Origin: an uncultured bacterium
GTDB taxonomy: Bacteria; Vulcanimicrobiota; CADAWZ01
DNA length: 64,000 bases
NCBI GenBank assembly: GCA_902790465.1
Contig: CADASF010000005.1
Location: 148,622-212,621 of the forward strand
Direction of reading: 5' to 3'
Made by a program: the position numbers and the translations under genes. A model generated the notes under the pieces. That model did not search any database. It worked only from the letters and a program-made list of their open reading frames with translations, and had not been told where the DNA came from. The stretch's first letter is position 1; every line of letters begins with the position of its first letter. Positions 31,756 through 54,435 of the stretch are shown one piece after another.

Positions 31756-32883
31756 TTATTTTGTAAGCTCGTAGTAATCAACTCTATTATTATCTTTTAT
31801 TACAAGTAGCTTGTTTATTTCTTCAATAAAAGCAACAGGATATGGCTTTGAAAGTGTCAAAACTTTTTGCATTTTTCCATCTTGTCTTAGATATACATTG
31901 AATTCATTGCCTTTTTGACCATAAAACCAAACTCTGCCATCATTGAATATCTTTCCTGCTAAAGGATGTACCTTACTTGATATTTCTGTTTTTTCTCCAT
32001 TTGAAACGAGAAAAACCTTGTTTTCACCTTTATTAGAATTTGTTCCAAATAAGCATTTAGAAGCATCTGAAGATAAATCAAGAGGTTTTATTGCTTGTTT
32101 TGCTCCGTGTAATTTTTTAACTTCTCCATTTTTATTTACTAAAAATATATAATTTACAAAATTTTTATCAGTTGGTTTTGGTCTATTTGTTATTACACAT
32201 AGACAAGAGTCTGATTCATTTGTTTTTACAAAACTTGTCATCAATTTTTTTAGGTCTTCTTTATTTTTTACAATGGTGCTTCCTGTTTTTTCTATAAGTC
32301 CATTTTGTGTAAATACATTTGTCATAGAAAATGGGTCTGTACATATATCCATTATAACTGTATCTCTTACATAATGACCAGTATCCCATTTATCAAGGTA
32401 TGAATAGGCATTTGTATCATTAAAAAATGAAAAAGTAGAAATTGGAGAAATTGCAAATCCTTCTTTATCTTTTGCTGGATTTGAATATACTTCATTCCAT
32501 TTTTTTGTTTTTGTATTTAAAGTCCATAATTTACCAGGATATTTTGAATAGACAAGAGCATTATTGGCATTTGTTGATATAGCAAATTTATTGAAATCTG
32601 TAAAAGGACATGAACCTTCTCTTACTATAGATCTTTTAAAAGGATCATATATATGCCATCTCAACTTTTTTGTTGTTTTATTTCTACCCAAAAAGAATAT
32701 TTCACCTGTTTTTGAAGCTACAGAAGGTGCTAATAATTCATGTTTTATTTGTTCTTGTGTCTTCTGTTCAAGGTTTTCTTTTGTAAAAGATGTTGCTTCT
32801 TTCAAATTAATATCTTTTGCATGGGCAACCATTATTGAAAACAATCCAAAAATACACAAAAATAAAACAGCTATTTTTTTCAT
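31756..32883 (-). CDS. Secreted hypothetical protein (tandem paralog 1)
   Basis: It has a signal peptide MKKIAVLFLCIFGLFSIMVAHA. It is ~65% identical over its full length to the adjacent paralog and is 375 aa long. Confidence 0.55.
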   Translation of the reverse strand: MKKIAVLFLCIFGLFSIMVAHAKDINLKEATSFTKENLEQKTQEQIKHELLAPSVASKTGEIFFLGRNKTTKKLRWHIYDPFKRSIVREGSCPFTDFNKFAISTNANNALVYSKYPGKLWTLNTKTKKWNEVYSNPAKDKEGFAISPISTFSFFNDTNAYSYLDKWDTGHYVRDTVIMDICTDPFSMTNVFTQNGLIEKTGSTIVKNKEDLKKLMTSFVKTNESDSCLCVITNRPKPTDKNFVNYIFLVNKNGEVKKLHGAKQAIKPLDLSSDASKCLFGTNSNKGENKVFLVSNGEKTEISSKVHPLAGKIFNDGRVWFYGQKGNEFNVYLRQDGKMQKVLTLSKPYPVAFIEEINKLLVIKDNNRVDYYELTK

Positions 32884-32899: not shown

Positions 32900-34027
32900 T
32901 TATTTTGTAAGCTCGTAATAATCAGCTCTTTTATTGTCTTTTATTACAAGAAGTTTGTTTACATCTTCAATAAAAGCGACTGGATAAGGCTTTGAAAGAG
33001 TTAAAACTTTTTGCATTTTTCCGTCTTTTCTTAAATATATGTTAAATTCATTTCCTTTTTGACCATAAAACCAAATTCGTCCATCATTAAATATATTTCC
33101 AGATAGAGGATGTATGTTATCAAAAATTTTTATTTTTTCATTGTTTGAAACAAGATAAACTTCGCTTTCTCCTTTTAAAGATATTGTTCCAAACATATAT
33201 TTAGAAGCATCAGAAGAAAGAGCAAGAGGTTTTATCATATTTGGACATCCATGCACTTTTTTTACATTGCCATTTTTATTGACCAAGAATATGTAATTTA
33301 CAAATCCTTTATCTGTCTGTCTTGGTCGATTTGTTATAACACAAAGACATGAATCTGAACTATTTGTTGTTATGAATGTTGTCATCAATTTTTTGATATC
33401 TTCTTTATTTTTGACAATAACATTTCCTGTTTTTTCTATCAATTCTCTTTGGGTATATGTCTTATTCATAGAAAATGGATTTACCGCAATATTAGTTATT
33501 ACTGTATCTCTTACATAATGATCTTTATCCCATTTATCAAGATATGAATAGGCATTTGTATCATTAAAAAATGAAAAAGATGAAATTGGAGAAATTGCAA
33601 GTCCTTCTTTATTGTTTTCAGGATTTGAATAGACTTCATTCCATTTTTTCTTATCTGTATTTAATACCCAAAGTCGCCCTGGATATTTTGAATAAACAAG
33701 AGCATTACCTGCATTTGTTGAAATAGCAAATTTATTAAAATCGGTAAAAGGGCAATCGCCTTCTTTGATAATTTTCTTTTTAAAAGGATTGTAAATGTGC
33801 CATCTTAATTTTTTTGTATTTTTATTCCTGCCAAAAAAGAATATATCACCTGTTTTTGAAGCAAGACATGGACCTAATAAACTATGTTTTATCTGTTCTT
33901 TTGTTTTTTGTTCGAGGTTTTCTTTTGTAAAATATGTAGATTCTTTCAATTCACCTTTTTTTTCAGCTGAAATTGCTGTAGAGAACATAGTAATTATAAG
34001 TAATAACATTACTGCTATTTTTTTCAT
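32900..34027 (-). CDS. Secreted hypothetical protein (tandem paralog 2)
   Basis: It has a signal peptide MKKIAVMLLLIITMFSTAISA and the same length and block structure as paralog 1. Confidence 0.55.
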   Translation of the reverse strand: MKKIAVMLLLIITMFSTAISAEKKGELKESTYFTKENLEQKTKEQIKHSLLGPCLASKTGDIFFFGRNKNTKKLRWHIYNPFKKKIIKEGDCPFTDFNKFAISTNAGNALVYSKYPGRLWVLNTDKKKWNEVYSNPENNKEGLAISPISSFSFFNDTNAYSYLDKWDKDHYVRDTVITNIAVNPFSMNKTYTQRELIEKTGNVIVKNKEDIKKLMTTFITTNSSDSCLCVITNRPRQTDKGFVNYIFLVNKNGNVKKVHGCPNMIKPLALSSDASKYMFGTISLKGESEVYLVSNNEKIKIFDNIHPLSGNIFNDGRIWFYGQKGNEFNIYLRKDGKMQKVLTLSKPYPVAFIEDVNKLLVIKDNKRADYYELTK

Positions 34028-38447: not shown

Positions 38448-40922
38448 CTATTTTTTTGAAGATTTTCTGACTCTTTTTTTAGGAGCAGGTTTTTCTTCTT
38501 CAGTTTTTTCTACTTTTGTAGCTTTTAATTCTTCTACTCTTTTTCTTGTTGCTTCAGCTCTTTTAGAACGAACTTTTTTAACTTCTTCAATTTTGGGCTT
38601 TTCTACCTTTGGAATTTCAATTTTTACTTCTTCAACTTTCGCTTCTTCTTTTTTGACTTCCTCAACTTTTATTTCTTCTTTAGGTTCTTCAACTACTGGC
38701 TCAGGTACTGGCTCGGGTTCTGGAAGTTCTATTGCAAAGTACAAAGCACCAAGTGGTGGAAGTGTCAAGTCGATAGAATATGGCATTTCATGCATTGGCT
38801 CTGGCTCTGCATATACTCCGCCTAAATTTCCATAATTATAACCGCCATATATTGCAGAATCGGAATTTAAGATTTCTCTGTAGAATCCTTCTGCAGGAAC
38901 TCCTATTTTGTAGTGTCTTCTCAAAACAGGAGTAAAATTAAATACGCCTATTATGAGCTTTCTGCCTGTTTCATCTTTTCTGATGAATGAGACAACACTG
39001 TTATTTGAATCCTTGAAATCGATCCACTGGAAGCCCTTACTGTCAAAGTCAATTTGATATAATGCTGGATTTTCTCTATATACATGAAGCAGATCTTTTG
39101 TGAATCTGCTTATTTGGCTGAATGGTTCATAATTCAATAAGTGCCAATCTATGCTTTTGTCATGATTCCATTCTGCTGGCTGTCCAAAATCGCTTCCTTG
39201 GAATAAAAGTTTTTTACCAGGGTGTGCAAACATATATGCAAATAACAATTTTAGATTTGCAACTTTTTGATCATCTGGACCAGGCATTTTGTTTATGAGA
39301 GAACCCTTTCCATGTACTATTTCATCATGTGAAAGTGGAAGCACAAATTTTTCAGAAAAAGCATACATCAATGAGAATGTTATTGCAGATTGGTTATATT
39401 TTCTGTAAAGTGGATCTGTTGACATATATCTGAGCATGTCATTCATCCAGCCCATATTCCATTTGTAGCTAAATCCAAGACCTCCCATATATACAGGGGC
39501 TGATACCAAAGGCCAAGCAGTTGATTCTTCTGCAGTCATCATGACTTCTGGGTAATATTTACCAATAACAGTATTTAGCTGTTTTAAGAAATCGACAGCA
39601 TCTAAATTTTCATGACCACCGTATTTATTTGGAATCCACTGACCAGGTTTTCTTGAATAATCCAAATATAACATCGAAGCTACTGCATCGATTCTTAAAC
39701 CGTCTGCATGGTATTTGTCAAACCAAAATAGAGCATTTGAAATCAAGAAGTTTCTAACTTCATTTCTTCCGAAGTTGAAAATAAGTGTTCCCCAGTCCAT
39801 GTGTTCACCTTGTCTTGGATCTTGGTGTTCATAAAGACATGTTCCGTCATATCTTGCAAGTGAATACATATCTTTTGGGAAATGTGCTGGAACCCAATCG
39901 AGAATTACAGAAATTCCATTTTGGTGGCATATGTCAATCAAATACATGAATTGATCTGGAGTGCCAAATCTGCTTGTTGGTGCATAGTAACCTGTTACTT
40001 GGTAGCCCCATGAACCTGAAAATGGATGCTCTGCTACAGGAAGAAGCTCTATGTGAGTATATCCCATTTCTTTTACATATTTTACAAGATTGTTTGCAAG
40101 ATCGACATAATTTAACATTTCGTTTTTGCCGTCTGCTGTTCTCATCCAAGAACCGAGATGTACTTCATAAATGGACATTGGCTCATTTCTGTAGTTACGT
40201 TTTTTGCGTTCTTCCATCCATTCGCTATCATTCCATTTGTATTTATCTATGTCATACACATAAGAAGCAGTGTTTGGAACTTTTTCTGTTCTAAATGCAA
40301 ATGGATCCATTTTTAGGATATTCTGTCTATATTGTGTATATATTTCGTATTTGTAGAGGTCGCCATCGAGGATTTCAGGGATGAATAGCTCCCATATTCC
40401 TGAAGAGCCTCTCAAACGCATAGTATGTACTCTTCCATCCCATCTGTTAAAGTCGCCTACGACACTAACTCTTCTTGCTGTTGGAGCCCATACTGCAAAA
40501 ACAGTTCCTTTTACTCCCTCTTTTTCTACAATGTGAGCTCCAAGTGAGTTATATGCAAAATTTAGATTGCTTCTATTATATAAATACAAATCTTCTTCAG
40601 ATAGTATTGGAAGGAATGAATATGTATCATATTCTTCTGTTTCATTGCCATTTGAATCTATTTTTATCAATTTGTATTTGAAATTTTCAGTTTTATCATC
40701 AAGTATTATTTCAAAAAATCCGCTTTTGTGAAGTTTTTGCATTTCGTATCTTGAATTGTCTGATAAATCTTTTACAAAAATTGCTTCTGCATAAGGATCA
40801 TAACAGCGGATTGCGATTTTTCCGTCTTCTTCAACATGTAATCCCAATACTGAAAATGGGTCTGTTGTATCTGAGTAGATAACGCTGTACATCTGCTCAG
40901 GTGTAAGTGATTTTTCTATCAT
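38448..40922 (-). CDS. glgB: 1,4-alpha-glucan branching enzyme with ~110-aa Lys/Glu/Pro/Val-rich C-terminal tail
   Basis: It has GH13 catalytic blocks (GLRIDAVASMLY; the region around HDEIVHGK) and a GlgB N-terminal CBM48-like region. The tail is PEPEPVPEPVVEEPKEEIKVEEVKKEEAKVEEVK... Confidence 0.9.
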   Translation of the reverse strand: MIEKSLTPEQMYSVIYSDTTDPFSVLGLHVEEDGKIAIRCYDPYAEAIFVKDLSDNSRYEMQKLHKSGFFEIILDDKTENFKYKLIKIDSNGNETEEYDTYSFLPILSEEDLYLYNRSNLNFAYNSLGAHIVEKEGVKGTVFAVWAPTARRVSVVGDFNRWDGRVHTMRLRGSSGIWELFIPEILDGDLYKYEIYTQYRQNILKMDPFAFRTEKVPNTASYVYDIDKYKWNDSEWMEERKKRNYRNEPMSIYEVHLGSWMRTADGKNEMLNYVDLANNLVKYVKEMGYTHIELLPVAEHPFSGSWGYQVTGYYAPTSRFGTPDQFMYLIDICHQNGISVILDWVPAHFPKDMYSLARYDGTCLYEHQDPRQGEHMDWGTLIFNFGRNEVRNFLISNALFWFDKYHADGLRIDAVASMLYLDYSRKPGQWIPNKYGGHENLDAVDFLKQLNTVIGKYYPEVMMTAEESTAWPLVSAPVYMGGLGFSYKWNMGWMNDMLRYMSTDPLYRKYNQSAITFSLMYAFSEKFVLPLSHDEIVHGKGSLINKMPGPDDQKVANLKLLFAYMFAHPGKKLLFQGSDFGQPAEWNHDKSIDWHLLNYEPFSQISRFTKDLLHVYRENPALYQIDFDSKGFQWIDFKDSNNSVVSFIRKDETGRKLIIGVFNFTPVLRRHYKIGVPAEGFYREILNSDSAIYGGYNYGNLGGVYAEPEPMHEMPYSIDLTLPPLGALYFAIELPEPEPVPEPVVEEPKEEIKVEEVKKEEAKVEEVKIEIPKVEKPKIEEVKKVRSKRAEATRKRVEELKATKVEKTEEEKPAPKKRVRKSSKK

Positions 40923-41043
40923 ACAATCTCCTTATATCTCTTTTATATAATAGTTTAATATTATAATTTGTTATGTTATTTTATAATTCCTGTATAATAT
41001 AAGATAAATTATCTCTATAGGCTATGTGTATTTTGTAAAAAAG

Positions 41044-41103
41044 CCTGTAAGAAAGGGAAAATTTTGTAAAATAAGAAATAATATATAAAAAAATAAAAAA
41101 CAT
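41044..41103 (+). repeat. Duplicated ~55-nt upstream segment (copy 1) ahead of paralog gene 41210
   Basis: GAAAGGGAAAATTTTGTAAAATAAGAAATAATATATAAAAAAATAAAAAACATG is repeated at 42817..42870. Confidence 0.85.
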
Positions 41104-41209
41104 GGGGCTGTGAAAAAAGTATTTTTTTATATAATTTTAGTAAATTAACTCGTTGTGCTAGTTATTTTTATTTATTACTTATTAAAATGATATAGCTGAG
41201 TAGAGACAT

Positions 41210-41809
41210 ATGACTACAATACAAGAAGCAAAAATTGGTGATTATGTAAAATTTGGTAGTTATCCACAGAGTGCAAAAGGTATAGTTCGACCTATTGAAT
41301 GGTTGGTTTTATCAAAAGAAGAAAATAAAATGTTGTTAATATCTCGTTATGGTCTTGAAGCAAGGTATTTTATTAAAGCAAAGTGTTTTGACAGTAATTC
41401 AAATGATTGGAAAAATAGTGAAATTCGCAAGTGGTTGAATGGTGAGTTTTACAATAAAGCCTTTGATGAAAATGAGAAAACAAATATAAATCCTTTTGAT
41501 GGTGATAATTTATTTTTGTTGAGTAAGGAAGAAGTAGAAAAATATTTTGTTAATGCTAAAGAAAGAAAATGTAAAGCTACTAAACATGCTGTGAAAAATT
41601 GTGCTTTGATTGATAATGGTTGCAATTATTGGTGGCTTCCTAAGACTTTGGTTAATGATAATAATGGTTGTAGCTCTTGGTGGCTTCGCTCTCCTCGTCC
41701 TAATATTAGTAATATTGTCTATAATGTAGATAGTGTAGGTTCTATCGTATGTAGCCGTGTTGATGATAGTTATAATTTTGTGAGACCCGCTTTATGGATA
41801 AAACTATAG
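41210..41809 (+). CDS. Uncharacterised conserved-domain protein (GRYPQ...WWLRSP...RPALWI family), paralog 1
   Basis: It shares GSYPQ, EWLVLS, RKWLNGEFYN, WWLRSPRPN and VRPALWIKL with the C-terminal domain of the 42953 gene. It has no signal peptide. Confidence 0.55.
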   Translation: MTTIQEAKIGDYVKFGSYPQSAKGIVRPIEWLVLSKEENKMLLISRYGLEARYFIKAKCFDSNSNDWKNSEIRKWLNGEFYNKAFDENEKTNINPFDGDNLFLLSKEEVEKYFVNAKERKCKATKHAVKNCALIDNGCNYWWLPKTLVNDNNGCSSWWLRSPRPNISNIVYNVDSVGSIVCSRVDDSYNFVRPALWIKL

Positions 41810-41910
41810 TTCTTTTTGTGAATAAATAGATAATAGCGTGTGAAGAAAATCATTCTCCGCACGCTATTTTTTGATATTTACAATTTTTGTTTAGGGAGCA
41901 TTTAGGTAAT

Positions 41911-42237
41911 CTACAGTTGTGCCAAATAAAATTCGTGTTTCTCTTGTGGAATTTTTAAAGCATTCATTGCATTTTCTGCAGTTATATTCATAGTCTCCAT
42001 TAACGATCTTATGTTATTGATAACAGCCTCTGCCATTCCTTCAAATTTTCCCTGTTTCTGTGCTTGTTTAGCTTGCGTTTCCGCTTGTTTTCTTGCTTTT
42101 TCTTCAGCTTTCTGTGCTTGTTTAGCTTGCTTTTCGGCTTCTTTTCTTGCTTTCTCGATTTCTCTTATTTTAGCTTCTGCTTCTTTCATTGCTTCTTCTT
42201 TAGCTTTTTGTATTTCTTTCTCAAAAAAGTCGAGCAT
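41911..42237 (-). CDS. Small Lys/Glu/Ala/Gln-rich coiled-coil protein with internal tandem repeat
   Basis: The start was reassigned to MLDFFEKEIQ, which has an AAGGAGGG RBS (reverse strand). It contains a repeated KQAETQAKQAQK unit encoded by a ~45-nt tandem DNA repeat. Confidence 0.4.
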   Translation of the reverse strand: MLDFFEKEIQKAKEEAMKEAEAKIREIEKARKEAEKQAKQAQKAEEKARKQAETQAKQAQKQGKFEGMAEAVINNIRSLMETMNITAENAMNALKIPQEKHEFYLAQL

Positions 42238-42502
42238 AAATGTTTCTCCCTCCTTTGTTTCTTTTAAATATTTTACAGGTTCTCTCAATTCGCTCTTTCA
42301 AGTTCTGCTCCTGCACAAACTCTTCCTTTAATTATATGTGAATAAAGGTAAAGAATCAATAAAATTTATAATATTATTTCTAATAATTCAAAAGTCAAAA
42401 AATTGACTTGTGTTATGTAAATTTAACTCGTTGTGTTAGTTAATAAAAGTAAATAAAAATTTGCTCTAAACTATCCAATATATGCCTGTATACTGCCACT
42501 TT

Positions 42503-42672
42503 GTCATTGCGAGGCTTTAGCCGTGGCAATCTAAGCCTGTAAATTATAAATTTACTTAAAAATTGAGTCGATCGTCTGTATTTGGAATATTGTCCTCAAT
42601 CTACTTAATAAATTACTAAATTTAAATTAAGCGTTTGAGATTGCCACGGTCGCACAGCTCCCTCGCAATGAC
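42503..42672. other. Long-range inverted repeat / candidate structured ncRNA: two perfect 12-bp helices enclosing ~105 nt
   Basis: GTCATTGCGAGG (42503-14) pairs with CCTCGCAATGAC (42661-72). CCGTGGCAATCT (42521-32) pairs with AGATTGCCACGG (42638-49). A small internal loop lies between the helices and there is an AT-rich interior hairpin (ATTGAG...CTCAAT). No ORF lies inside. Confidence 0.4.
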
Positions 42673-42784
42673 ATCGCTTCTAAATAGTGGCTATTTTGGT
42701 TACGGAAATCAATTTTTGTTATTGATTTTGCTGTTAAATAATTTTCAAAAATACGATACAATGTTAATATTTTTTATTTTGTAG

Positions 42785-42870
42785 CTGTAAGCCAATGCGT
42801 GAACGATAACTTTTTAGAAAAGGGAAAATTTTGTAAAATAAGAAATAATATATAAAAAATAAAAAACATG
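42785..42870 (+). repeat. Duplicated upstream segment (copy 2, with a 26-nt insertion) ahead of paralog gene 42953
   Basis: CTGTAAG-[CCAATGCGTGAACGATAACTTTTTAG]-AAAAGGGAAAATTTTGTAAAATAAGAAATAATATATAAAAAATAAAAAACATG. Confidence 0.85.
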
Positions 42871-42940
42871 TTATGAGGTGTGTAAGTTATGAAATAACTT
42901 ACACACCTCATAACCCAGTTAATCTACCAAATTAACTGGG
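42870..42940 (+). promoter_or_regulatory. Two consecutive hairpins in the 5' leader of gene 42953: a perfect 21-bp-arm palindrome (42870-42914) and a 9-bp-arm hairpin (42915-42939) just upstream of the RBS
   Basis: GTTATGAGGTGTGTAAGTTAT-gaa-ATAACTTACACACCTCATAAC is followed by CCAGTTAAT-ctaccaa-ATTAACTGG. AGGAGA lies at 42943 and ATG at 42953. Confidence 0.6.
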
Positions 42941-42952
42941 TTAGGAGAGATC

Positions 42953-44059
42953 ATGACGAAGAAATTTTTATTTCTTACACTATGCCTTTTTATCCTCGGC
43001 ACATTCATTTCAGCCTGTGGCGGAAGTGGCAAAACAACTCCACCAGACAACTCTGCATATTACTATTTATTGGCTCAACAGAATAACAACAATCAGCAAG
43101 ATAATAATCAAGAACAAAATAATCAAGAACAAAATAATCAAGAACAAAATAACCAAGAACAAAATAATCAAGAACAAAATAACAACGAACAACAAGTCGA
43201 TCCAGCTTTGCCAAGTCTTGAAGTTAATCCAAAAGAAATTTATGTAGTGGTTGATGAGGAAGATAATATAGTAGTTACACTTGAAGGAAAAGTTGTAACA
43301 GAAGATGTTACTTACAAATCTGATGATGAATCGATCGCAACAGTTGATAAAGGAACAGTAAAGGGCTTAAGAGTTGGTACTACTAATATAACAGTATCTC
43401 TTGAAGGTGCAAACAGTGCAGTTTTTGAAGTAAATATTGTAGAAAATCCATTTAAAGAAGCCCAAAAAGGTGATGAAGTGGAATTTGGTCGTTATCCTCA
43501 GACCGCAGAAGGTGAAGTTCAACCTATAAAATGGCTTGTATTGTCAAGAGATGACGAAAATAAACAATTATTGGCAATTTCAGTTGATGGTCTTGATGCA
43601 CTTCGTTTTGATGATGATTCAGATGGTAGTACAACAAATGTTTGGGAAAAGAGTGTAATTCGTGGTTGGTTGAATGGCGATGGTTTTTATAATAGAGTTT
43701 TAGAAGATGAAACAGCAGTATTTACTGATGGTGAGAAAAGTTTAATAAAGCCAGTAGTTCTTGCAGATGTATATATGACAGAGCCAGATAATGTATTTTT
43801 GTTGAGTAAGAAAGAGGCAGAGGATTATTTTGCCGATGATTCTGCTCGAATGTGTAAAGCAACCGAATATGCAAAGGCAGATGGTGCTAGGATATCAACA
43901 TCTGGAAGTTATGCAGGTAATTGTTCTTGGTGGCTTCGTTCTCCTAGTCCTAATTTTACTAATCGTGTCTATTATGTTGTTGGTGATGGTGCTAATCTCT
44001 TCGACAATGTTGATAATACCAATAATTCAGTTCGGCCCGCTTTATGGATCAATCTTTAA
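42953..44059 (+). CDS. Lipoprotein with N/Q/E-rich linker, a bacterial Ig-like group 2 domain and a C-terminal uncharacterised conserved domain (paralog 2)
   Basis: It has a lipobox (FISACGGSG) and five (NNQEQ) repeats. A Big_2-like block (SIATVDKGTVKGLRVGTTNITV) is followed by a C-terminal FGRYPQ/KWLVLS/WWLRSPSPN/VRPALWINL domain. AGGAGA RBS. Confidence 0.6.
   Translation: MTKKFLFLTLCLFILGTFISACGGSGKTTPPDNSAYYYLLAQQNNNNQQDNNQEQNNQEQNNQEQNNQEQNNQEQNNNEQQVDPALPSLEVNPKEIYVVVDEEDNIVVTLEGKVVTEDVTYKSDDESIATVDKGTVKGLRVGTTNITVSLEGANSAVFEVNIVENPFKEAQKGDEVEFGRYPQTAEGEVQPIKWLVLSRDDENKQLLAISVDGLDALRFDDDSDGSTTNVWEKSVIRGWLNGDGFYNRVLEDETAVFTDGEKSLIKPVVLADVYMTEPDNVFLLSKKEAEDYFADDSARMCKATEYAKADGARISTSGSYAGNCSWWLRSPSPNFTNRVYYVVGDGANLFDNVDNTNNSVRPALWINL
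43104..43195 (+). repeat. Coding 15-nt tandem repeat (AATAATCAAGAACAA, about 5-6 copies) encoding (NNQEQ)n in the lipoprotein linker
   Basis: Direct reading of 43090-43200. Confidence 0.9.
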
Positions 44060-44097
44060 TCAAAAAAATATAGATTAGAACTTGAAGAAATGCAATA

Positions 44098-44137
44098 AAA
44101 AGACTCGGTACTAAATTAGCACCGAGTCTTTTGGTTT
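44098..44137 (+). terminator. Rho-independent terminator after the 42953 gene
   Basis: AGACTCGGT-actaaattagc-ACCGAGTCT is followed by TTTTGGTTT. Confidence 0.75.
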
Positions 44138-44179
44138 GAGGCTAAGGTCTGATTCCATATGGATCACCTCTTTTTCACT

Positions 44180-44761
44180 TTAGAATCCGAAAAAGCTACC
44201 TATTTTTTTGAAAATAGATTTTGCACCATTTACTACTTTGCCACCTACTTTTTCTATAACTCCGCTGGCTACTTTTCCTACAACTCCACCTGCTAAATTT
44301 CCAACTATACCACCGATAGGACCACCTATTGCTCCGCCAATTACTGTTCCTATGCCTTTACCTACTGCTGTTCCAGCTTCGCCACTGATTTTTCCTAATA
44401 TGCCTTTACTTTTTTCTGATTTTTTTGCTTCTTTTGTTTTGTCAGTATGTACTTCATTTGCTTTGTTTTCTTTAACCGCAGGAGCTATATTTTTGTTTGC
44501 TTCAAATTGTGGAAATGCTGGCATTTGTTGCATTGCTCCAACTCCATTTATTCTCCAAGCCTGTCCACCCATTTGTTGAATCATTTGCATTGTCTGCATT
44601 TGCATCATAATTTGTTGCATTTGTATCATCATTTGTTGCATTTGCATATACTGCATATTTCCAAAACCGTAGTTGTAATTGTAGTTCATTCCGTAATTGG
44701 AATTTCCATTATAAAAATTGCTGTAGTACATTACATTTGAATATATAATTTGGTTATTCAT
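44180..44761 (-). CDS. Hypothetical protein: N/Y-rich then M/Q-rich low-complexity N-terminus, with a C-terminal glycine-zipper segment
   Basis: It has a GGAGG RBS (reverse strand). NFYNGNSNYGMNYNYNYGFG is followed by MQYMQMQQMMIQMQQ. The C-terminal zipper reads GKGIGTVIGGAIGGPIGGIVGNLAGGVVGKV. Confidence 0.5.
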   Translation of the reverse strand: MNNQIIYSNVMYYSNFYNGNSNYGMNYNYNYGFGNMQYMQMQQMMIQMQQIMMQMQTMQMIQQMGGQAWRINGVGAMQQMPAFPQFEANKNIAPAVKENKANEVHTDKTKEAKKSEKSKGILGKISGEAGTAVGKGIGTVIGGAIGGPIGGIVGNLAGGVVGKVASGVIEKVGGKVVNGAKSIFKKIGSFFGF

Positions 44762-45212
44762 AATCTTAAACCTCCAAAAAAAATATTTATTTTCTTGTTT
44801 TTTATATCACTTAAAATTTCAATTAGTAAATAGGTTTAGTGAATAATTTATGCTCTATTTCACGATTGCAATAAATTAAATAATGATTTTTTTCACAAAT
44901 GTAATATTTAATAATTTTTATTATATTTTGATATATTTTTGAAATATTTATTAATAATTTTTCTGTAAATTCTATTTTTATTAAGTCAGAAATTAAACAA
45001 TTTGTCTGTGAAATAGAAATAATTATTTGATTACAGAATTAATTAAAAATAATGGATGATTCTCACAGAATGACAATAGATGCTCACAAAACAAAATATT
45101 TTTTTATTCCAAAAATTTATCAAGATATTTCTGGAAACATAAACAAAGGGGCAAGAAATAATAAATTGGTATGTAATCCAATGCGTGAAAGATGATAAAA
45201 AGACAACATAAA

Positions 45213-45253
45213 AAGGCTCGGTACTTAGTTAATAGCACCGAGCCTTTTAGTTT
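45213..45253. terminator. Bidirectional terminator downstream of the PKS-like gene (similar in sequence to the 44098 terminator)
   Basis: AAGGCTCGGT-acttagttaatagc-ACCGAGCCTT is followed by TTTAGTTT. On the reverse strand a T-run follows. Confidence 0.7.
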
Positions 45254-45263: not shown

Positions 45264-48200
45264 TTACATCATCTTTAATGCGAAGTTGGAGAATTTGTAG
45301 ATATTTCTGCCATCGACTGAAAGCCAGCCGTCACAGATAATTACTTTGTCATCATTTGATTTTGAAGTTACCCAAACTCTGACTGTTACCAAATCATCTT
45401 TTGGGATTACCTGTCCTCTATATGTCCACAAATGTTTACATTCACATAATGGAGAGATAAATCCCTCTGATTTCTCCGCTTCTTTACTCCAGAATTTTAT
45501 TGACATATACTTCATCAATGAAATCATTGATTCAAGACCGAGTGATCCAGGTATTACTGGATCCTGATAGAAATGAGCTTTGAAGAACCAATCTGAAGGT
45601 CTTACTTTCATAGTTCCTTCAATATAGCCCAATCCTTTTGGACCGCCATGTGGTGCAAAAACTGTTATATTATCTATCATTTTTAACATAGATTTTGGCA
45701 ATATCCTATGTTCTGGATATATAATATTTCGTTCTGAATCTTTGTCATTGCCTACAGGCGGAATCTTTGCGTCCAATATACCTATTTGATTTTTTAGTGC
45801 CTCTTTTGAGAAGAAGCCAAAATATGTCCAACCTTTATATACACTTCCTATTTCATCATAGACATCAAAGAAGTAATTTTGAATGACCATTCCTGCCGAT
45901 TTTGAGACTGTTTCAAGTTTTACATCTGTATGTAATATCTTTGTGTTTTTGTTTACAGGTCTTTCAAGATGACCATAACCACCTAAATTTCTAAATGACA
46001 GATCAAAATTTTCGGTAAGTGCAGAACCGACATAGGCAGCAAGCCAACCGCAAGGCTGAAGTGCAACTTCAAGAAGTACAGAAAATGGCATTAATGATGA
46101 AGAACTCTGTTCAAAATACCATTCATTACCATTCATATCATATTGAGCAGAGGCTGATGCAGGAGTTTTCATTACCCATTGTTCACCTGCTACTTTTACG
46201 ATTCTGTCAAGGAATTTATATGGATCGCCTGGTAATCTTGCGATTATTCTGTCTTTGTCAAATACTGCATATTTACTGCCAAATGCTTCTGAAGGATTGC
46301 CAATAGCAAATGCAGTTATCGAGGCATTGTCAAAAACTGGAGTTTGTGGAGTTTTGCCAACATTTTTAATATTTCGCCATATCTTTTCCAAGCGTTCTTT
46401 AGATGAACCTTTTAACTGAATTGACATATTCAGCATTTCGACAATAGGTTTTCCATCTGCAAACATCAAGGCATCTGCTATTGCATAAGGATATGGATTA
46501 TAGCCAATTTCTTTTATTGAGATTCTAAAAGATGATTTTTTAGTTGATTCTATGACTTGACCTCTACATTTTAGAGAGCTTGAAACTCCCTGTATTGGCT
46601 CCCAAACAGTGTCTTTAGCTGAATCAATCCAACCAGCTCTCATCAAGAAAATTCTGAGTGTGTGCATGCAACATTCATACATCAATGTACCTGGCATGAC
46701 ATTGTCATCTGAGAAGTGGCATGTCAAGAACCAGTCATCTGGATGGATATCGAGTTCAGATTCAATGCTTCCTATTCCAAATCTGCCACCCGTTGGATTT
46801 AGGTTAATAACCCTGTCGAGAAGTTTCATGTATTTATGTCTTGGTAATGTCAATGGGTCTTCACAGTCCATATAATCAAAAGACGATCCAAAACATGCAG
46901 AAATTTTGCCTTTTCTCAATTCGGCTATTTCGGTATCTGCATAAGATTCTTCATACATTGGGACAAATGGTTTAAAGCCGTCTTTTATCAGTCCTTTTTC
47001 AGGGCGTAAGTCAAGGGCTGTGTGGATAATTCCTTTGCCTTCGTCAAGTTGTTGTTGTGTGAAGAAGCCTGCACAGCCATTTGTCATTGACATCAATTTT
47101 TTAGTGCCGACAAAACTTTCAAAATTGAAGTAGAACAGCCAAACCGATCCTTGTGTAAAGAATCTTTCAATATTTATTTCATATCTTATCGTTTCACCGA
47201 CTTTTGGAAGGTGATCATGGAATTGAATCGAGGCATTTAACAATCTATAGACAGCAAGACCTTTTGTCTTTTTGTCAATACCCAACCAGCCAGATAAAAA
47301 TAGATCAGATTGACCCGCTTCAACAGCAACACAAGTTGGAATAATGCCATTGTCCAAATACCAAGCATTTTCTTTTATATCATGTTCTGTAACTGTTGAA
47401 CCTGATGTCAGAGAAAGTGGTTCACCAGAAACACTTAAGATCCTATCCGCAAGCATTAATGGCTCATCAGGAAGTCTTACTCTTGTTGGATAGCTATCTA
47501 TCTCCTCAAACATTTTACCCAAAACTTTACCAATAGACCCTGTGGCAAACTCCATGCATGCCTCTCTATCCATAAATATCTTTTTGTCGCTTGCGTTCTT
47601 ATCTCTGCGATCGATTTTGTCTCTGCTACTTGTTTGGTAATTGCCATCTACAAAGTTTTTCTCTTGGCTTGCGTTCTTATCTCTGCGATCGATTTCGTTT
47701 TGGCTAACTTTTTCATAACTGCCATATACATTATTTTCTTTTTGGCTCTCTTGCTTATTTCTGCGATCGACATTGCCAAGATATATATTTTGTGAAATTT
47801 CTGTTGGGCAATCCAAAACAAGGGAAATCAAATCTTGTGAGAAGTTCAAATATTCGCCATGAGCTTCTGCCGTCTTCTGTTCCATTTCAAATATTCTTTT
47901 TAGTACGCTATTTGCTGTTTCTGTAGTTTGGCTAATTTCAATTTGTGGCATTTTTTCTTTGCTCTCTTGTTTGTATATGCTACCTAATTCGTTTTGAGTT
48001 ACTTCTTTGTCTCTAAAATTTATAAAGTTTTCTCTATGCTCGTTGTTAATATTTTGTGATATTACAGGCTTACTTTCTTTTTCTTTACTTAATTTATTGT
48101 CTCTTTGCTCTATTGTTTTACTGGAATTTGTCTTTTTTGAATTGTATTCAGAACTTTTTTCACTAAAAGCTCTTTTTGATAGAGAAATTTTCATCAGATT

Positions 48201-51200
48201 TGATTTTTTAGTTTCTTTAAAATCTCTGTCAAAAAGATTCAATTTTTCAAAATCTATTCCATTTACAAAAAGAACAGCACACATATTTAAGAATGTATCT
48301 ATTTCAGAAAATCCAGCTTTTGTCGCATATACAGCAAGATGAGGTTTTTCTGACAAAATGGAATCTATCATTCTTGTACAAGAACAACTTGGACCGACTT
48401 CTATAAATACTCTTATTCCGTCTTTCCAAGCCTGTTCTATGACTGCAGGGAAATCTATTGTATAAGAAGCCTGGTTTAATATTGTGTCAGCTATATTGTC
48501 TGATGTTATATCATAACTTTTCTTTAATGCCGTACTGTAAAAAGTTATATTATTTGGATTTTCTGCAGGGAAGTAGTGAAGATCTCTGTATTTCTGAGCA
48601 ACAGGTTTTAAAACTTCACAATGAACAGAAGTTACACCTTCAATAGGAATTATCGTACATTTTAGTTCTTCTGCACATTTCTCTACTTCTTTTCTCTCTC
48701 CGCCAATAACACAATCTTCATAAGTATTTATTATAAGGAGATATACTCTGTCATATTTTTCTATGACTTTTTGAGCTTTCTTGTAATTACAAGCGATAAC
48801 AGCTGTAAGCCAATCGACTTTTTCATTTTCAGGTATATTCCAAACTTTTTTGGCGGAATTATATTCACCTGCTAAGTCATCTATAAAGAGAGATGATGAA
48901 TTTAATCTATCCATCATTTCATCTCTTGAATGCCAAATTCTAAGTGCTGTTATTCCTGCCATTTCTCCGAGAGAATAGCCAATAGAGGCATTTGGCTTTA
49001 TTCCCAAATTTGCCACACAATCAGAGGCAATAGATGACATAGCTGTTTGACCTTGAAGGAGTGCAGGGTGATTATTTGAAACATCATCTAAATTTTCTTT
49101 TGTCCAAAAATAATTTGGCAAAATTTGATCTTTCAATCTCAAATTTTCTTCATTTTCATTATACATGACATTTGGGAATCTTAGAGCAAGCTCTTTTCCC
49201 ATTCCTGCATAATGGTTGCCTGAACCTGGAAATACAAATGCTATTTTTCCTTTTTCTGCAAATTTTCCGTCATTGTATGTAAGACCTTCCGTGTGTTCAG
49301 GGAATGTATTTGCAATTTTCTTAAATTCTGCAAAGTCTTTTGCCAAAATACTTGCTCTGAATATATCTTTGTCAGTATCTTTTTCTCTATTTTTTTCAAG
49401 ATATAGTGCAGATTGTGAAAAAGTTAAATCTGTTTCTGACAAAAATTTTAATGCAGAATCTATTTTTTGTTTTAAATCTTCTTCATTTTTAGAGGCAAAG
49501 AAGAATATCTCTTTATTTTGGAAATTGTGTAGGTGTTCAGGCTCACAAGGTGGCTCTGAAATATCTATTTTTATGCCTCTATTTGTTATTGATGAAAAAG
49601 AGGTTGCAGAATCTGTTATTTTGCCTTCAATTCTGTTTGAAAGTCTATATGTTTTACTTATAGGCTCGAATCTGTCTTTTATGAAAAGGCATTTTTCAAC
49701 AAGTTCCAAAGCACCATTTTTCTCTTGGCTCTCTTTTTCGTCTCTGCGATCGACTTTGTCTAAGCTACTTGTTTGATAATTACCATTTACAAAGTTTTTC
49801 TCTTGGCTCTCTTTTTCGTCTCTTGGTGAGATTTTAGAAACATTGTCAATTACAGCATATATTTTGTTTTTATCTCTTACTGCGTCATCATATCTTTTTA
49901 AAACAAAACAAACAGATGTATCAAAGAATTTGTCATTTCTTTTTGACATCATATTTTTACAGAAAGTAAATCTGTCATCAGAGGCAATATCTGTACAACC
50001 TGCAATGACTACATCTGTTTCAAAATTTACAAGTGAGTCAAAAGCGAGTGATACTGCTTCTAAGCCTCCGTTTTCAGATTCAGAAACAGTGTGTGAGGTT
50101 TTGCCAAAGCCAAATTCTCTCGCTATTCTGCTTGCAGTTATACTACCCAATGCCCCCATTGTTCTATTTGCATTTAATGGCTCTGAAAAGACTTTGTCTC
50201 CAGTTCTCCATGATACATAGAAATCTGTTGTTGAAAAATCAAAATTGATTCCGATAAAAACTCCGCCTTTTGCATATTCTTCTTTTTTGATGTCAGCGTC
50301 AGACATTGCAGAAATTGCAGAAAGAAGCATTGCTTTTTGTTGTGGAAGTGATTCATCAAGCTCTTTTGGAGGAATTTTTATTTTTCCAAATGGTATTTGT
50401 GTATCTTCAAATGTTCTTTTTGAAGGATATTTTCCCTCGGCTCTCATTTTTTCAAATTCATAGGCATTATTTACATTGCCAACTCTCACATCAATTCCGA
50501 CTACAGCTACTTTCTTATCATTTTTTTGTGGATTGAGAGCTTTTTTATTTTCATAAAGTTCTTTTTTAAATTCTTCAATTATTACATGTGCATTTATTCC
50601 ACCAAAACCAAATGCACTTACAGCCACTCTTTTTGTTTTTGAATCCCATTTTTCAGCTTTTGTTGGAACAAAAAATGGAGAATTTTCTATATCTATTGAT
50701 GGTGTTGAATAATTTGCAATAGGTGGCAAAATGCCCTTTTGCATTGAAAGTAAAACCTTTACAAGTCCTGCACCACCTGCACCTGTCAAAAGGTGTCCTA
50801 TATTGGATTTTACACTACCAAGTGCAGATTTTTTGTTTTCTCTCTTACAATTAAATTCAGAAAATAGCTTGCATAGGCTTCCAAATTCAACTTTATCACC
50901 TGCAGGTGTTCCTGTTGCATGGCATTCAAATAAATCTATGTCAGAGGGGAGAAGATTTGCCTGTTCGTAAGCCTCTTTCATTGCTCTTAATTGACCCTCT
51001 TGCGAAGGCATTAAAAGGCTTCCTTCTCTGTCATTTGAAAGACCAACTGCTTTTATAACTCCGTATATTTTGTCTCCGTCTTTTATTGCATCTTCAACTC
51101 TTTTTAAACAGATGATTCCTGCACCTTCACCTGTAACAAGCCCTTTGCCTTTTTTGTCAAATGGGGCACATATTCCGTCTGTAGAAAGTGCTGATAATTG

Positions 51201-53855: not shown

Positions 53856-53905
53856 GCTTTAAATCCGCCGTATCAAAAAAAAATAAAAATTTTTTAAAAA
53901 AACTC

Positions 53906-53934
53906 TTGACAAAATGAAGATACCGTTGTATAAT
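53906..53934 (+). promoter_or_regulatory. Consensus sigma70-type promoter of the tRNA operon (TTGACA - 17 nt - TATAAT, with TG immediately upstream of the -10)
   Basis: TTGACA lies at 53906-53911 and TATAAT at 53929-53934, with an exact 17-nt spacer. The predicted start is ~45 nt upstream of tRNA-Pro. Confidence 0.7.
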
Positions 53935-53984: not shown

Positions 53985-54059
53985 CGGGGTGTAGCGCAGC
54001 TTGGCTAGCGCATCTGGTTTGGGACCAGGGGGTCGGAGGTTCGAATCCTCTCACCCCGA
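53985..54059 (+). tRNA. tRNA-Pro (anticodon TGG)
   Basis: Hand fold: acceptor CGGGGTG/CACCCCG, anticodon loop TTTGGGA, T-loop TTCGAAT. Confidence 0.8.
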
Positions 54060-54086
54060 CTTCAGTCTTAAAAGCCTGGAATCAAT

Positions 54087-54163
<77 letters not shown>

Positions 54164-54170
54164 TTAAAAT

Positions 54171-54245
54171 GGTGAGTGTAGCTCAATTGGTTAGAGCGCT
54201 GGTCTGTGGAACCAGAGGCTGTGGGTTCAAGTCCCACCATTCACC
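54171..54245 (+). tRNA. tRNA-His (anticodon GTG) with G-1
   Basis: Hand fold: G-1 plus acceptor GTGAGTG/CATTCAC, anticodon loop CTGTGGA, T-loop TTCAAGT. Confidence 0.8.
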
Positions 54246-54273
54246 CTTGACAAAATAAATAAAGTTTTTACAT

Positions 54274-54347
54274 GGGTCGTTAGCTCAGTTGGCTAGAGCA
54301 CCTGACTTTTAATCAGGGTGTCACAGGTTCGAGTCCTGCACGACCTA
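54274..54347 (+). tRNA. tRNA-Lys (anticodon TTT)
   Basis: Hand fold: anticodon stem CCTGA/TCAGG, loop CTTTTAA, acceptor GGGTCGT/ACGACCT. Confidence 0.75.
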
Positions 54348-54362
54348 TTTTTTTTGATAAGA

Positions 54363-54435
54363 GGGTCTTTAGCTCAGTTGGTAGAGCACCTGACTCTTAA
54401 TCAGGGTGTCGAGAGTTCGAGCCTCTCAAGACCCA
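54363..54435 (+). tRNA. tRNA-Lys (anticodon CTT)
   Basis: Hand fold: anticodon loop CTCTTAA, acceptor GGGTCTT/AAGACCC. Confidence 0.8.

What the first reader, a model, noticed from the sequence alone, without database searches (positions are those of the whole stretch)
41044..42870. Paralogous GRYPQ/WWLRSP/RPALWI-domain genes preceded by a duplicated ~55-nt upstream block
Genes 41210 (stand-alone domain) and 42953 (lipoprotein, N/Q linker, Big_2 domain, then the same domain) share an uncharacterised domain: GxYPQ...WLVLS...WLNG...WWLRSP...VRPALWI. Each is preceded by a nearly identical 55-nt sequence ending ...AAAAAACATG (41050-41103 and 42817-42870). Copy 2 carries a 26-nt insertion (CCAATGCGTGAACGATAACTTTTTAG), a fragment of which also recurs at 45178-45193. 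This points to duplication of a gene together with its promoter or leader, followed by divergence of one copy into a surface-anchored form.
Basis: seen in the sequence. Interest (0 to 1): 0.5.

Follow-up and report, generated by a model that had tools for sequence, protein, structure and literature searches.

The report
Copied upstream block, two lectin-like genes
Two old paralogous genes for a C-type-lectin-like binding domain (Pfam DUF6273) in an uncultured rumen bacterium each carry a nearly identical 53-base upstream block, probably the surface lipoprotein gene's own promoter/leader recently copied in front of the other gene; the two copies bracket a 1.8-kb segment that one natural variant lacks, so this is real and tidy but an ordinary kind of genome dynamics.

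Summary
R1 (41052-41104) and R2 (42819-42870) match at 52 of 53 positions, with one A-run indel. They are the only copies in the window. Both genes match Pfam DUF6273. Predicted structures show a C-type-lectin-like fold, closest to the N-terminal domain of the Thomasclavelia ramosa IgA protease.

The interpretation needs correcting. The genes are old paralogs (50% aa identity), yet the blocks are 98% identical. In a sister lineage the closest relative of gene 1 (87% aa) has no block. The block does sit directly before the ribosome-binding site of lipoprotein-gene orthologs and alleles: 100% identical in two same-species alleles and 76-84% in a sister lineage. So it is the lipoprotein gene's native upstream region, with a conserved TGTAAAAT -10-like element, and it reached gene 1 only recently.

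The "26-nt insertion" is 27 nt. It is the relic 3' end (CKPMRER*) of a 191-aa gene family, so copy 1 most likely carries a deletion.

One rumen contig holds a single block and lacks the 1767 bp between the copies.

Alleles of the lipoprotein gene are mosaics that diverge in the C-terminal part of the lectin-like domain. There is no sign of a diversity-generating retroelement (DGR). Promoter activity is inferred, not shown.

The parts
41045..41104 (+). Copy 1 of the block (R1): CTGTAAG followed by the 53-nt core AAAGGG…AAAAAACATG. It lies 105 nt upstream of the gene 1 ATG and 130 nt upstream of the divergent glgB start.
   Evidence: (D6)
41104..41133 (+). GGGGCTGTGAAAAAAGTATTTTTTT, the left half of a hairpin type seen complete at 27829-27851 and as the termini of the inverted-repeat element at 63500-63720. 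It is followed by a perfect TATAAT (41128-41133), an alternative promoter for gene 1.
41146..41164 (+). 19-nt motif TAACTCGTTGTGCTAGTTA. It recurs at 42424, 23252, 23435(-) and 63818.
   Evidence: 5 matches; 0.01 expected
41210..41809 (+). Gene 1: a 199-aa stand-alone DUF6273 domain with no signal peptide.
   Evidence: (E 1.2e-20)
41832..41874 (+). Intrinsic terminator of gene 1 (GC-rich stem plus U-run). The same 3' end and terminator follow lipoprotein-type genes in L098, L099, L101 and L102.
   Evidence: (-27 kcal/mol, z -7.1)
41911..42288 (-). Truncated C-terminal remnant of an Rpn-family nuclease/putative transposase gene (coiled-coil KQAEKQ repeats). It is longer in other contigs. The window lacks 46 nt at 42291/42292.
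   Evidence: TIGR01784 E 1.4e-7 for the longer L099 copy
42495..42690 (.). MITE-like inverted-repeat element with arms GTCATTGCGAGG…CCGTGGCAATCT. Several assemblies break inside it.
   Evidence: I2; z -5.9; contig ends at 42646 and 42688
42702..42783 (+). Repeated intergenic module ACGGAAAT…AATAATTTTCAAAAATAC…TTTTTTATTTTGTA, also present at 63731-63790.
42786..42809 (+). Relic of the last 7 codons plus stop (CKPMRER*) of a 191-aa gene family. It accounts for most of the 27 nt 'extra' in copy 2.
   Evidence: (D14)
42819..42870 (+). Copy 2 of the block (R2), 52 nt. It contains the conserved TGTAAAAT -10-like element at 42832-42839.
42870..42939 (+). Two perfect hairpins: 21 bp at 42870-42914 and 9 bp at 42915-42939. 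The 62 nt at 42878-42939 are absent in L097 and L099 and are flanked by GTTATGAG and GTTAGGAG. On the minus strand, hairpin 1 plus the T-run of R2 looks like a terminator.
   Evidence: I7; z -8.1
42953..44059 (+). Gene 2: a 368-aa lipoprotein. It has a lipobox (FISAC), a disordered N/Q/E linker (aa 21-81; 15-nt repeats at 43103-43192), a Big_2 Ig domain (43211-43396) and a DUF6273 domain (43475-44053). From about 43550/43750 to the end, alleles are strongly divergent.
44098..44132 (.). Hairpin terminator between the convergent gene 2 and the 193-aa gene. A related hairpin lies at 45211-45248.
   Evidence: (D12, D16)
45058..45195 (+). Larger relic (45 codons plus stop) of the 3' end of the same 191-aa gene family.
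   Evidence: (68.9% aa identity, E 7.4e-16)

Best explanation
The 53-nt block is the native upstream region of the DUF6273 lipoprotein gene (gene 2). It combines a weak-(-35), extended-(-10)-type sigma-70 promoter core (conserved TGTAAAAT) with an A-rich 5' leader that originally ran straight into the ribosome-binding site. In this lineage a second, very recent copy of that region lies in front of the old paralog, gene 1, a stand-alone DUF6273 domain. That copy still carries CTGTAAG, the start of the gene relic that precedes R2. Its position probably puts both lectin-like genes under the same transcription signal.

The two copies are direct repeats. Together they bracket a 1767-bp cassette made of gene 1, a truncated Rpn-family gene and a MITE-like element. 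Homologous recombination between them removes (or adds) that cassette, which gives presence/absence polymorphism in the population.

Both proteins are C-type-lectin-like ligand binders. Gene 2 displays its domain on a lipid anchor, a long disordered linker and an Ig spacer. The C-terminal, ligand-facing third of its domain differs sharply between alleles through recombination, not through a diversity-generating retroelement (DGR).

Shown: the repeat, its age relative to the genes, its conservation upstream of gene-2-type genes, the single-copy variant, the fold, and the mosaic alleles. Inferred: promoter activity, co-regulation, recombination as the cause of the variant, and ligand binding.
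For: - Repeat: 52/53 identity, E 1.6e-18, only two copies in the window.
- Relative age: the genes are 50% aa and 53-76% nt identical.
- Gene 1's ortholog in L093 (92.7% nt over 41198-41802) has no block and sits 35 nt behind another gene.
- Same-species alleles of gene 2: in L097 the 90 nt at 42788-42877 are 100% identical although the gene is 86.7% identical overall. L101 also carries the identical block.
- Sister lineage L099/L100: the block is an island of 76-84% identity in otherwise unalignable intergenic DNA, with the invariant core GGAAAATTTT(TT)GTAAAATAA.AAATAA. As in L097, it abuts the RBS.
- The organism uses canonical sigma-70 signals. The tRNA cluster promoter is TTGACA-17-TATAAT with an adjacent TG (TGTATAAT), the same form as the block's TGTAAAAT.
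- L011 carries glgB, one block and then gene 2. Its flanks are 99.9% and 100% identical to the window and the 1767 bp are missing.
- Literature: DUF6273 is described as C-lectin-like (PMC10743442; bioRxiv 10.1101/2024.10.15.618418).
Against: - The block has no good -35 hexamer, and the consensus promoter scan did not flag it.
- No transcript data exist.
- Gene 1 has its own perfect TATAAT downstream of R1, so R1 may be a passenger.
- The single-block variant rests on one MEGAHIT contig.
- The direction of the event is not resolved. It could be a deletion, or the state before an insertion.
- Only about 64 kb of this genome plus roughly 100 kb of related contigs could be examined for further copies.
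- Evidence for the duplicated unit to the left of the core is 7 nt, plus the argument from the gene relic. Homology further left is not significant.
Confidence: 0.6

Rival explanations
1. The block has no regulatory function. The two copies are only the junction scar of the recombination event that placed the gene-1 cassette next to glgB, for example Campbell-type integration of a circular intermediate or unequal crossing-over. Their near-identity reflects youth alone.
For: - 98% identity despite old genes.
- The cassette between the copies carries mobile-DNA debris: an Rpn-family remnant and a MITE-like element.
- An empty or deleted allele, L011, exists.
- The right edge of R1 coincides exactly with a repeated 15-mer, GGGGCTGTGAAAAAA.
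- Gene 1 has its own TATAAT.
- No consensus -35 is present.
Against: The block is conserved as an island upstream of the gene-2 homolog in the sister lineage L099, where the surrounding intergenic DNA does not align. It abuts the RBS in L097 and L099. This is the behaviour of a functional 5' region, at least for R2.
Confidence: 0.22
2. The block functions on the minus strand. Its complement is a T-run which, together with the 21-bp hairpin at 42870-42914, forms an intrinsic terminator or insulator that stops leftward transcription.
For: The terminator scan lists the hairpin plus ATGTTTTTTA on the minus strand. The hairpin is perfect, with z -8.1 for the leader fold.
Against: - No minus-strand gene ends there, because gene 2 to the right is on the plus strand.
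- The hairpin is absent at R1, and is also absent in L097 and L099, where the block is nevertheless conserved. The block's conservation therefore does not depend on the hairpin.
Confidence: 0.05
3. The block is one member of a genome-wide dispersed repeat (REP- or MITE-like) that sits near both genes only by chance.
For: This genome does carry several short repeated intergenic modules: the 19-nt motif (5 copies), the GGGGCTGTGAAAAAA 15-mer (4 copies), the 128-nt repeat, and the module at 42702 and 63731.
Against: - Only two copies occur in 64 kb.
- No further copies occur in L093-L102 beyond those upstream of gene-2-type genes.
- There were 0 hits in 185,579 species-representative genomes and 0 in JGI metagenomes for the core. 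A degenerate pattern found only 4 unrelated sequences.
- The block has no terminal inverted repeats.
Confidence: 0.05
4. Gene 1 is a silent donor cassette. The shared block and the conserved 3' end (…VRPALWI plus terminator) act as recombination anchors for swapping lectin-domain cassettes into the expressed lipoprotein gene. This would be a programmed variation system.
For: - Gene 1 lacks a signal peptide.
- Gene-2 alleles are mosaics whose break points lie inside the domain.
- The 3' end and terminator of gene 1 also follow gene-2-type genes in L098, L099, L101 and L102.
- Another genome holds a Sel1-repeat-DUF6273 protein followed by at least 9 tandem DUF6273 cassettes.
Against: - The divergent parts of the L097 and L101 alleles are no closer to gene 1 (55-75%) than window gene 2 is.
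- Gene 1 has its own RBS, terminator and an 87% ortholog elsewhere, and hundreds of stand-alone homologs exist. It therefore looks like an expressed gene.
- No recombinase is intact in the locus.
Confidence: 0.08

Closest known systems
Pfam PF19789 (DUF6273); N-terminal domain of the Thomasclavelia ramosa IgA protease (PDB 9qa6)
   Different: In the protease the domain is fused to an M64 metallopeptidase and is sortase-anchored (PMC12402451). Here it stands alone (gene 1) or is lipid-anchored behind a Big_2 domain (gene 2). No ligand is known for any member.
C-type-lectin-fold variable proteins of diversity-generating retroelements (Mtd, TvpA, TaqVP; phage 'tentaclins' and Mtd-like DUF6273 targets)
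   Different: - There is no template repeat in the window.
- No ORF of 150 aa or more carries a Y[AVMIL]DD motif.
- Mismatches between the paralog 3' ends are not adenine-specific.
- Close strain variants differ at scattered positions, not in a variable region.
Variation here comes from exchange of whole segments.
Direct-repeat-mediated deletion or duplication of gene cassettes by homologous recombination (general bacterial genome dynamics)
   Same: Two 52/53-nt direct repeats bracket 1767 bp. A natural variant has exactly one repeat and lacks the interval, with the left flank of copy 1 and the right flank of copy 2.
   Different: The repeat is not an IS element or an rRNA operon. It is the 5' region of one of the genes, so the rearrangement leaves gene 2 with an intact upstream region.
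Silent-cassette antigenic variation (own knowledge: Borrelia vls, Treponema tprK, Neisseria pilE/pilS)
   Same: A surface protein has segmentally variable alleles and a promoter-proximal paralog nearby. DUF6273 cassette arrays occur in another genome.
   Different: No donor-to-recipient tracts were found. Gene 1 looks like an independent, expressed gene. There is only one potential donor.

Membership tests
Pfam DUF6273 (PF19789) | HMM score above the curated gathering threshold (23.5 bits) | tested here: met
   Gene 1 scores 74.5 bits (E 1.2e-20) and gene 2 scores 64.1 bits (E 1.9e-17). All 120 listed homologs of gene 1 carry PF19789.
C-type-lectin-like fold | A confident 3D model that superposes on solved CTLD / FGE-like / DGR variable-protein structures | tested here: met
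C-type lectin (functional, Ca2+-dependent glycan binding) | Ca2+/carbohydrate-binding motifs (EPN/QPD, WND) and demonstrated glycan binding | not tested
   Identity to CTLDs is only 5-12%.
DGR target (variable protein) | A cognate template repeat differing from the variable region only at adenines | tested here: not met
   Self-BLAST finds no copy of either 3' region other than the paralog. The mismatch spectrum between the paralog 3' ends is spread over all bases.
DGR target (variable protein) | A reverse transcriptase and accessory gene nearby | tested here: not met
   No Y[AVMIL]DD motif occurs in any ORF of 150 aa or more in the 64-kb window. This was a motif scan only, not an HMM search, and the rest of the genome was not seen.
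DGR target (variable protein) | Variation between close strains confined to the variable region | tested here: not met
   Variants with at least 99% identity differ at D212, L217, R218, T227, F335, K172 and in linker copy number.
Bacterial lipoprotein (gene 2) | N-terminal signal peptide ending in a lipobox [LVI][ASTVI][GAS]C | tested here: met
   MTKKFLFLTLCLFILGTFISAC|GGSGK, read directly from the sequence. The model has a helix at residues 2-20. No dedicated predictor was run.
Sigma-70 promoter (for the block) | -35 and -10 hexamers with 16-18 nt spacing, upstream of a mapped transcription start | tested here: inconclusive
   A conserved TGTAAAAT resembles the TGTATAAT of the tRNA and 52077 promoters. 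The -35 matches only 3 of 6 positions, and the consensus scan does not list the block. No transcription-start data exist.
Dispersed repeat / MITE (for the block) | Many copies in unrelated contexts, with terminal inverted repeats and target-site duplications | tested here: not met
   There are two copies in the window, and the other copies found all lie upstream of gene-2-type genes. Public scans gave 0 relevant hits. The whole genome is not available.
Intrinsic terminator (hairpin 42870-42914 plus minus-strand T-run) | A GC-containing stem followed by a U-run at the 3' end of a transcription unit | tested here: inconclusive
   The stem and T-run are present on the minus strand, but no minus-strand gene ends there. 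The hairpin is absent in L097 and L099.
Rpn family recombination-promoting nuclease/putative transposase (ORF 41911-42288) | Match to TIGR01784 above its cut-off, including the PD-(D/E)XK nuclease core | tested here: not met
   The longer but still partial L099 homolog gives E 1.4e-7 and 31.6 bits, below the 52.1-bit cut-off. The window copy keeps only the C-terminal coiled-coil tail, so it is a remnant and not a member in working order.

The most novel reading that the evidence does not exclude
The conserved 5' block and the conserved 3' end with its terminator (…VRPALWI) act as portable homology arms. These arms let whole or partial DUF6273 lectin cassettes be swapped, added or dropped at a surface-lipoprotein expression site. 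This would be a recombination-based counterpart, in an uncultured rumen bacterium, of the retroelement-driven diversification that the same fold undergoes in gut phages. Stand-alone DUF6273 genes and arrays, as in L107, would serve as the cassette reservoir.
Probability: 0.1. Interest if true: 0.6.

Novelty: new member of a known kind. Interest (0 to 1): 0.3.

Why it matters
DUF6273 is a very large family with no experimentally defined ligand. One search found more than 2000 relatives at E ≤ 1e-10. The family is known mainly as a DGR target in gut phages and as the N-terminal domain of an IgA protease.

This locus shows the same lectin-like domain on a bacterial surface lipoprotein. Its alleles are segmentally variable in the same cattle-rumen populations. 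A short 5' block also marks a presence/absence polymorphism of a paralog. This gives a concrete place to study how a commensal diversifies a surface binding protein without a retroelement.

The block itself is a small, testable candidate promoter for an uncultured lineage that has no close relative among 185,579 representative genomes. None of this changes a general principle. It is a well-documented example of ordinary recombination-driven locus dynamics.

Tried and rejected
- **Genome-wide repeat.** I scanned 185,579 representative genomes and the JGI metagenomes for the block core and found 0 hits. A degenerate pattern found 4 sequences with no other similarity to the window. The representative genomes hold no close relative: the best GlgB match is 60% identical.
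- **Known RNA family.** The Rfam gathering scan of the whole window found only 8 tRNAs and nothing in 41000-43000.
- **Structured leader shared by both genes.** The gene 1 leader folds no better than shuffles (z -0.24). The strong fold of the gene 2 leader comes from a 62-nt hairpin insert that L097 and L099 lack.
- **DGR.** Rejected.
- **Gene 1 as donor for the divergent gene-2 alleles.** Not supported.
- **Phage origin of gene 1.** There is only one weak phage hit (28% identity). The PHROG hits are to families of unknown function and to Hoc-like families.
- **Defence-system membership.** No PADLOC hit.
- **Extension of the duplicated unit further left than CTGTAAG.** Not significant: 32 of 300 shuffles reach the score.
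- **Taxonomy.** NCBI names the matching MAG proteins only '[bacterium]'.
- **Neighbouring proteins.** Pfam and NCBIfam give nothing for the 193-aa, 191-aa and 404-aa neighbours.
Full report
**1. What is in the sequence**

The ORF list shows two plus-strand genes. Gene 1 runs from 41210 to 41809 (199 aa) and gene 2 from 42953 to 44059 (368 aa). They lie between a minus-strand glycogen-branching-enzyme gene (38448-40922) and a minus-strand 2202-aa polyketide/PUFA-synthase-like gene (45264-51872).

Window 41052-41104 and 42819-42870 align over 53 columns with one indel (A7 versus A6), which is 98.1% identity at E 1.6e-18 in a self-BLAST of the window. A search with up to three mismatches finds no further copy, and dinucleotide shuffles give none.

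Both copies are preceded by CTGTAAG. Copy 2 then carries 27 additional bases (42792-42818). Twenty of 22 bases at 42786-42807 recur at 45172-45193.

**2. The domain**

Both proteins match Pfam PF19789 (DUF6273) well above threshold. Gene 2 also has a Big_2 Ig-like domain. The two DUF6273 domains are 50% identical.

Homology searches return hundreds to thousands of relatives, all carrying PF19789 and none with a functional name.

AlphaFold models built on these alignments are confident, with mean pLDDT 85.6 for each.
- Weaker matches follow: the Legionella Lcl C-terminal domain (7.7), Treponema denticola variable protein TvpA (7.3), FGE/EgtB-type domains, many animal C-type lectin domains (about 5) and Bordetella phage Mtd (5.2).
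- Foldseek and a sequence profile agree on 9qa6.

This matches the literature. The domain is described there as C-type-lectin-like and as a frequent target of diversity-generating retroelements in gut phages (PMC10743442; bioRxiv 10.1101/2024.10.15.618418). It is also described as the N-terminal domain of the IgA protease (PMC12402451).

The gene 2 model shows four parts:
- a signal helix;
- a disordered stretch at residues 21-81, the N/Q/E linker encoded by six 15-nt repeats;
- an Ig sandwich at residues 89-163;
- the lectin-like domain at residues 175-367.

The lipobox FISAC is read directly from the sequence. Gene 1 has no signal peptide.

**3. Where the organism and the locus occur**

The exact proteins occur on dozens of contigs from cattle-rumen metagenomes. 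NCBI labels the matching MAG proteins only '[bacterium]'. The best GlgB match among 185,579 representative genomes is 60% identical, so the lineage is essentially unrepresented in that collection.

**4. The block is much younger than the gene duplication, and it belongs to gene 2**

Across the aligned domain, gene 1 and gene 2 are 53-76% identical in DNA, whereas the blocks are 98% identical.

The nearest relative of gene 1 is on contigs L093-L096, from a related rumen organism in which another shared gene is 83% identical. This relative is 87% identical in protein and 92.7% in DNA. Homology to the window begins only 12 nt before the ATG (window 41198). There is no block. The gene sits 35 nt behind a 404-aa gene and in front of a 191-aa gene.

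Genes of the gene-2 type, in contrast, carry the block.
- In L097 and L101, which are same-species alleles with flanks 100% identical to the window, the 90 nt at 42788-42877 are 100% identical. The genes are only 85-87% identical overall.
- In L099/L100, a sister lineage with 64% protein identity, the block is recognisable at 76-84% identity. It forms an island in otherwise unalignable intergenic DNA, with an invariant core GGAAAATTTT(TT)GTAAAATAA.AAATAA.
- In both L097 and L099 the block runs directly into the ribosome-binding site.

The window and most other contigs instead have 62 extra bases (42878-42939). These form two perfect hairpins and are flanked by GTTATGAG and GTTAGGAG.

More distant gene-2 relatives (L098, L102) have unrelated upstream regions.

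My reading is that the block is the native 5' region of the lipoprotein gene and that the copy before gene 1 is secondary.

**5. The 'insertion' in copy 2**

The bases TGT AAG CCA ATG CGT GAA CGA TAA (42786-42809) encode CKPMRER plus a stop codon. The intact 191-aa gene next to the gene 1 ortholog in L093 ends …TYKPMRER*. A 45-codon relic of the same gene family lies at 45058-45195 (68.9% identity, E 7.4e-16).

Copy 2 therefore preserves the junction between a decayed gene end and the block. Copy 1 keeps only CTGTAAG of that junction. A 27-nt deletion in copy 1 is thus more likely than an insertion in copy 2. Similarity further to the left is not significant.

**6. A natural variant with one block**

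Contig L011 (ERZ27280336) matches window 40000-41104 at 99.9% and window 42819-44184 at 100%. The two matches overlap by exactly one block.

L011 lacks the 1767 bp in between, which hold:
- gene 1 and its strong terminator;
- the C-terminal remnant of an Rpn-family nuclease/putative-transposase gene;
- a MITE-like inverted-repeat element.

This is the product expected from homologous recombination between the two direct repeats. It could equally be the state before a reciprocal insertion, and I cannot tell which. It rests on one contig.

The R1-specific A7 and the R2-specific A6 are constant in all other contigs.

**7. Does the block act as a promoter?**

The organism uses canonical sigma-70 signals. 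The tRNA cluster is preceded by TTGACA-17 nt-TATAAT, with TG immediately before the -10 (TGTATAAT). The same TGTATAAT precedes gene 52077.

The block contains TGTAAAAT, which is invariant in every copy including L099. A start about 7 nt downstream of it would give a leader of about 45 nt in L097, about 110 nt for gene 2 in the window, and about 130 nt for gene 1.

Three points count against a promoter role:
- the -35 region matches only 3 of 6 positions;
- the consensus scan does not list the block;
- gene 1 has its own perfect TATAAT at 41128.

Promoter function is therefore my best inference, not a result.

On the minus strand, the first hairpin plus the block's T-run scores as a terminator. 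However, no gene ends there, and the hairpin is missing in lineages where the block is conserved.

**8. Variation in the lectin-like domain**

A codon-based sliding comparison shows where the alleles depart from the window's gene 2.
- L097 is 94-100% identical up to about 43750 and then falls to 57-88%.
- L101 is identical up to about 43550 and then falls to 62-85%.
- The second half of L101 is of the L099 type. It is followed by the terminator that follows gene 1 in the window (92.7% identity over 41774-41855).

The divergent tracts are not derived from gene 1. Their identity to gene 1 is 52-82%, about the same as window gene 2's own identity to gene 1 (53-76%).

The most variable stretch lies between the conserved WWLRSP and VRPALWI motifs. 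This is the region that DGRs mutate in phage members of the family.

There is no DGR signature here:
- no template repeat in the window;
- no RT-like motif in any long ORF;
- no adenine bias in mismatches between the paralog 3' ends;
- scattered differences among near-identical strains.

Linker repeat number also varies between strains.

**9. Comparison with known systems, and verdict**

The proteins are new members of a catalogued but functionally uncharacterised family. Gene 2 has the architecture of an adhesin-like surface lectin.

The duplicated block is a short, recently copied 5' region. It doubles as a substrate for a cassette-sized indel.

The surrounding DNA is a patchwork of gene relics and small repeated modules.

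A more exotic reading is programmed cassette exchange that uses the block and the conserved 3' end as homology arms. Three observations hint at it: the shared 3' end and terminator, the mosaic alleles, and a tandem array of at least nine DUF6273 cassettes behind a Sel1-repeat-DUF6273 protein in another genome. No donor tracts support it, and I give it about 10%.

Overall the finding is confirmed as an observation and corrected in interpretation. It is of modest interest.

Noticed in passing
window 23252-23379 and 63818-63941: A 128-nt intergenic repeat (93.8% identical) begins with the 19-nt motif TAACTYGTTGTGTTAGTTA. A related sequence follows the 191-aa gene in L093 (7229-7320). It could be a small RNA gene or a regulatory module.
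   Followed up: partly
window 41146, 42424, 23252, 23435(-), 63818; also L099 about 7900(-): The near-palindromic 19-nt motif TAACTCGTTGTGTTAGTTA occurs 5 times in intergenic DNA, against 0.01 expected. One copy lies between R1 and gene 1, and one lies upstream of the Rpn remnant. It is a candidate operator or promoter element.
   Followed up: partly
window 63500-63720; 41104-41118; 27829-27851: GGGGCTGTGAAAAAA forms the inverted termini of an element of about 220 nt at 63500-63720. It is also the stem of a bidirectional-terminator-like hairpin at 27829-27851. A solo half-copy starts exactly at the right edge of R1.
   Followed up: partly
window 42495-42690: A MITE-like inverted-repeat element has arms GTCATTGCGAGG…CCGTGGCAATCT. 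Several metagenome contigs end inside it (at 42646 and 42688), which suggests it is multi-copy in the genome. The flanking module 42702-42783 recurs at 63731-63790.
   Followed up: partly
window 42291/42292: The window lacks 46 nt that all other contigs of this locus carry. The deletion shortens the already truncated Rpn-family ORF, which is called at 92, 108 or 164 aa in other contigs.
   Followed up: partly
window 42878-42939: A 62-nt insert forms two perfect hairpins in the gene 2 leader. It is flanked by the 8-nt near-repeat GTTATGAG/GTTAGGAG and is absent in L097 and L099. The right arm of hairpin 1 contains the reverse complement of the flank, which is reminiscent of a fold-back (template-switch) duplication.
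   Followed up: partly
window 43103-43192: A 15-nt tandem repeat (NNQEQ, 6 copies) lies in the lipoprotein linker. Copy number differs between strains: P0123 has one fewer and L097 has three fewer.
   Followed up: yes
window 44180-44761 (-): A 193-aa protein has an N-terminal N/Y/M/Q-rich low-complexity half and a C-terminal glycine-rich, membrane-like half. It has no family match. A homolog (about 80% nt) sits next to the gene-2 homolog in L099 but on the other side of it.
   Followed up: partly
window 31756-32883 and 32900-34027 (-): Two adjacent 375-aa genes are tandem paralogs, 80% identical over 1057 nt.
   Followed up: no
window 45264-51872 (-): A 2202-aa multidomain synthase (KS, KS, AT-like and FabA-type dehydratase domains, PUFA-synthase-like) has internal repeats, for example 47602-47669 versus 49741-49808.
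   Followed up: no
L107 794-10494 (ERZ28634528 scaffold_1965) and L108: In another genome, a 1008-aa Sel1-repeat protein ends in a DUF6273 domain. It is followed by a tandem array of at least 9 DUF6273 units (60-92% nt identity). Some units are single ORFs and some are 2-3-domain ORFs. The array is interrupted by an Ntox50 toxin-domain fragment.
   Followed up: partly
L093 4752-7197: In the related organism the gene 1 ortholog is flanked by a 404-aa multi-pass membrane protein and a 191-aa protein, both without family matches. Relics of the 191-aa gene occur twice in the window, which suggests an old three-gene neighbourhood.
   Followed up: partly
window 53985-54767: A cluster of 8 tRNA genes lies behind a textbook TTGACA-17-TATAAT promoter at about 53905-53933.
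   Followed up: partly
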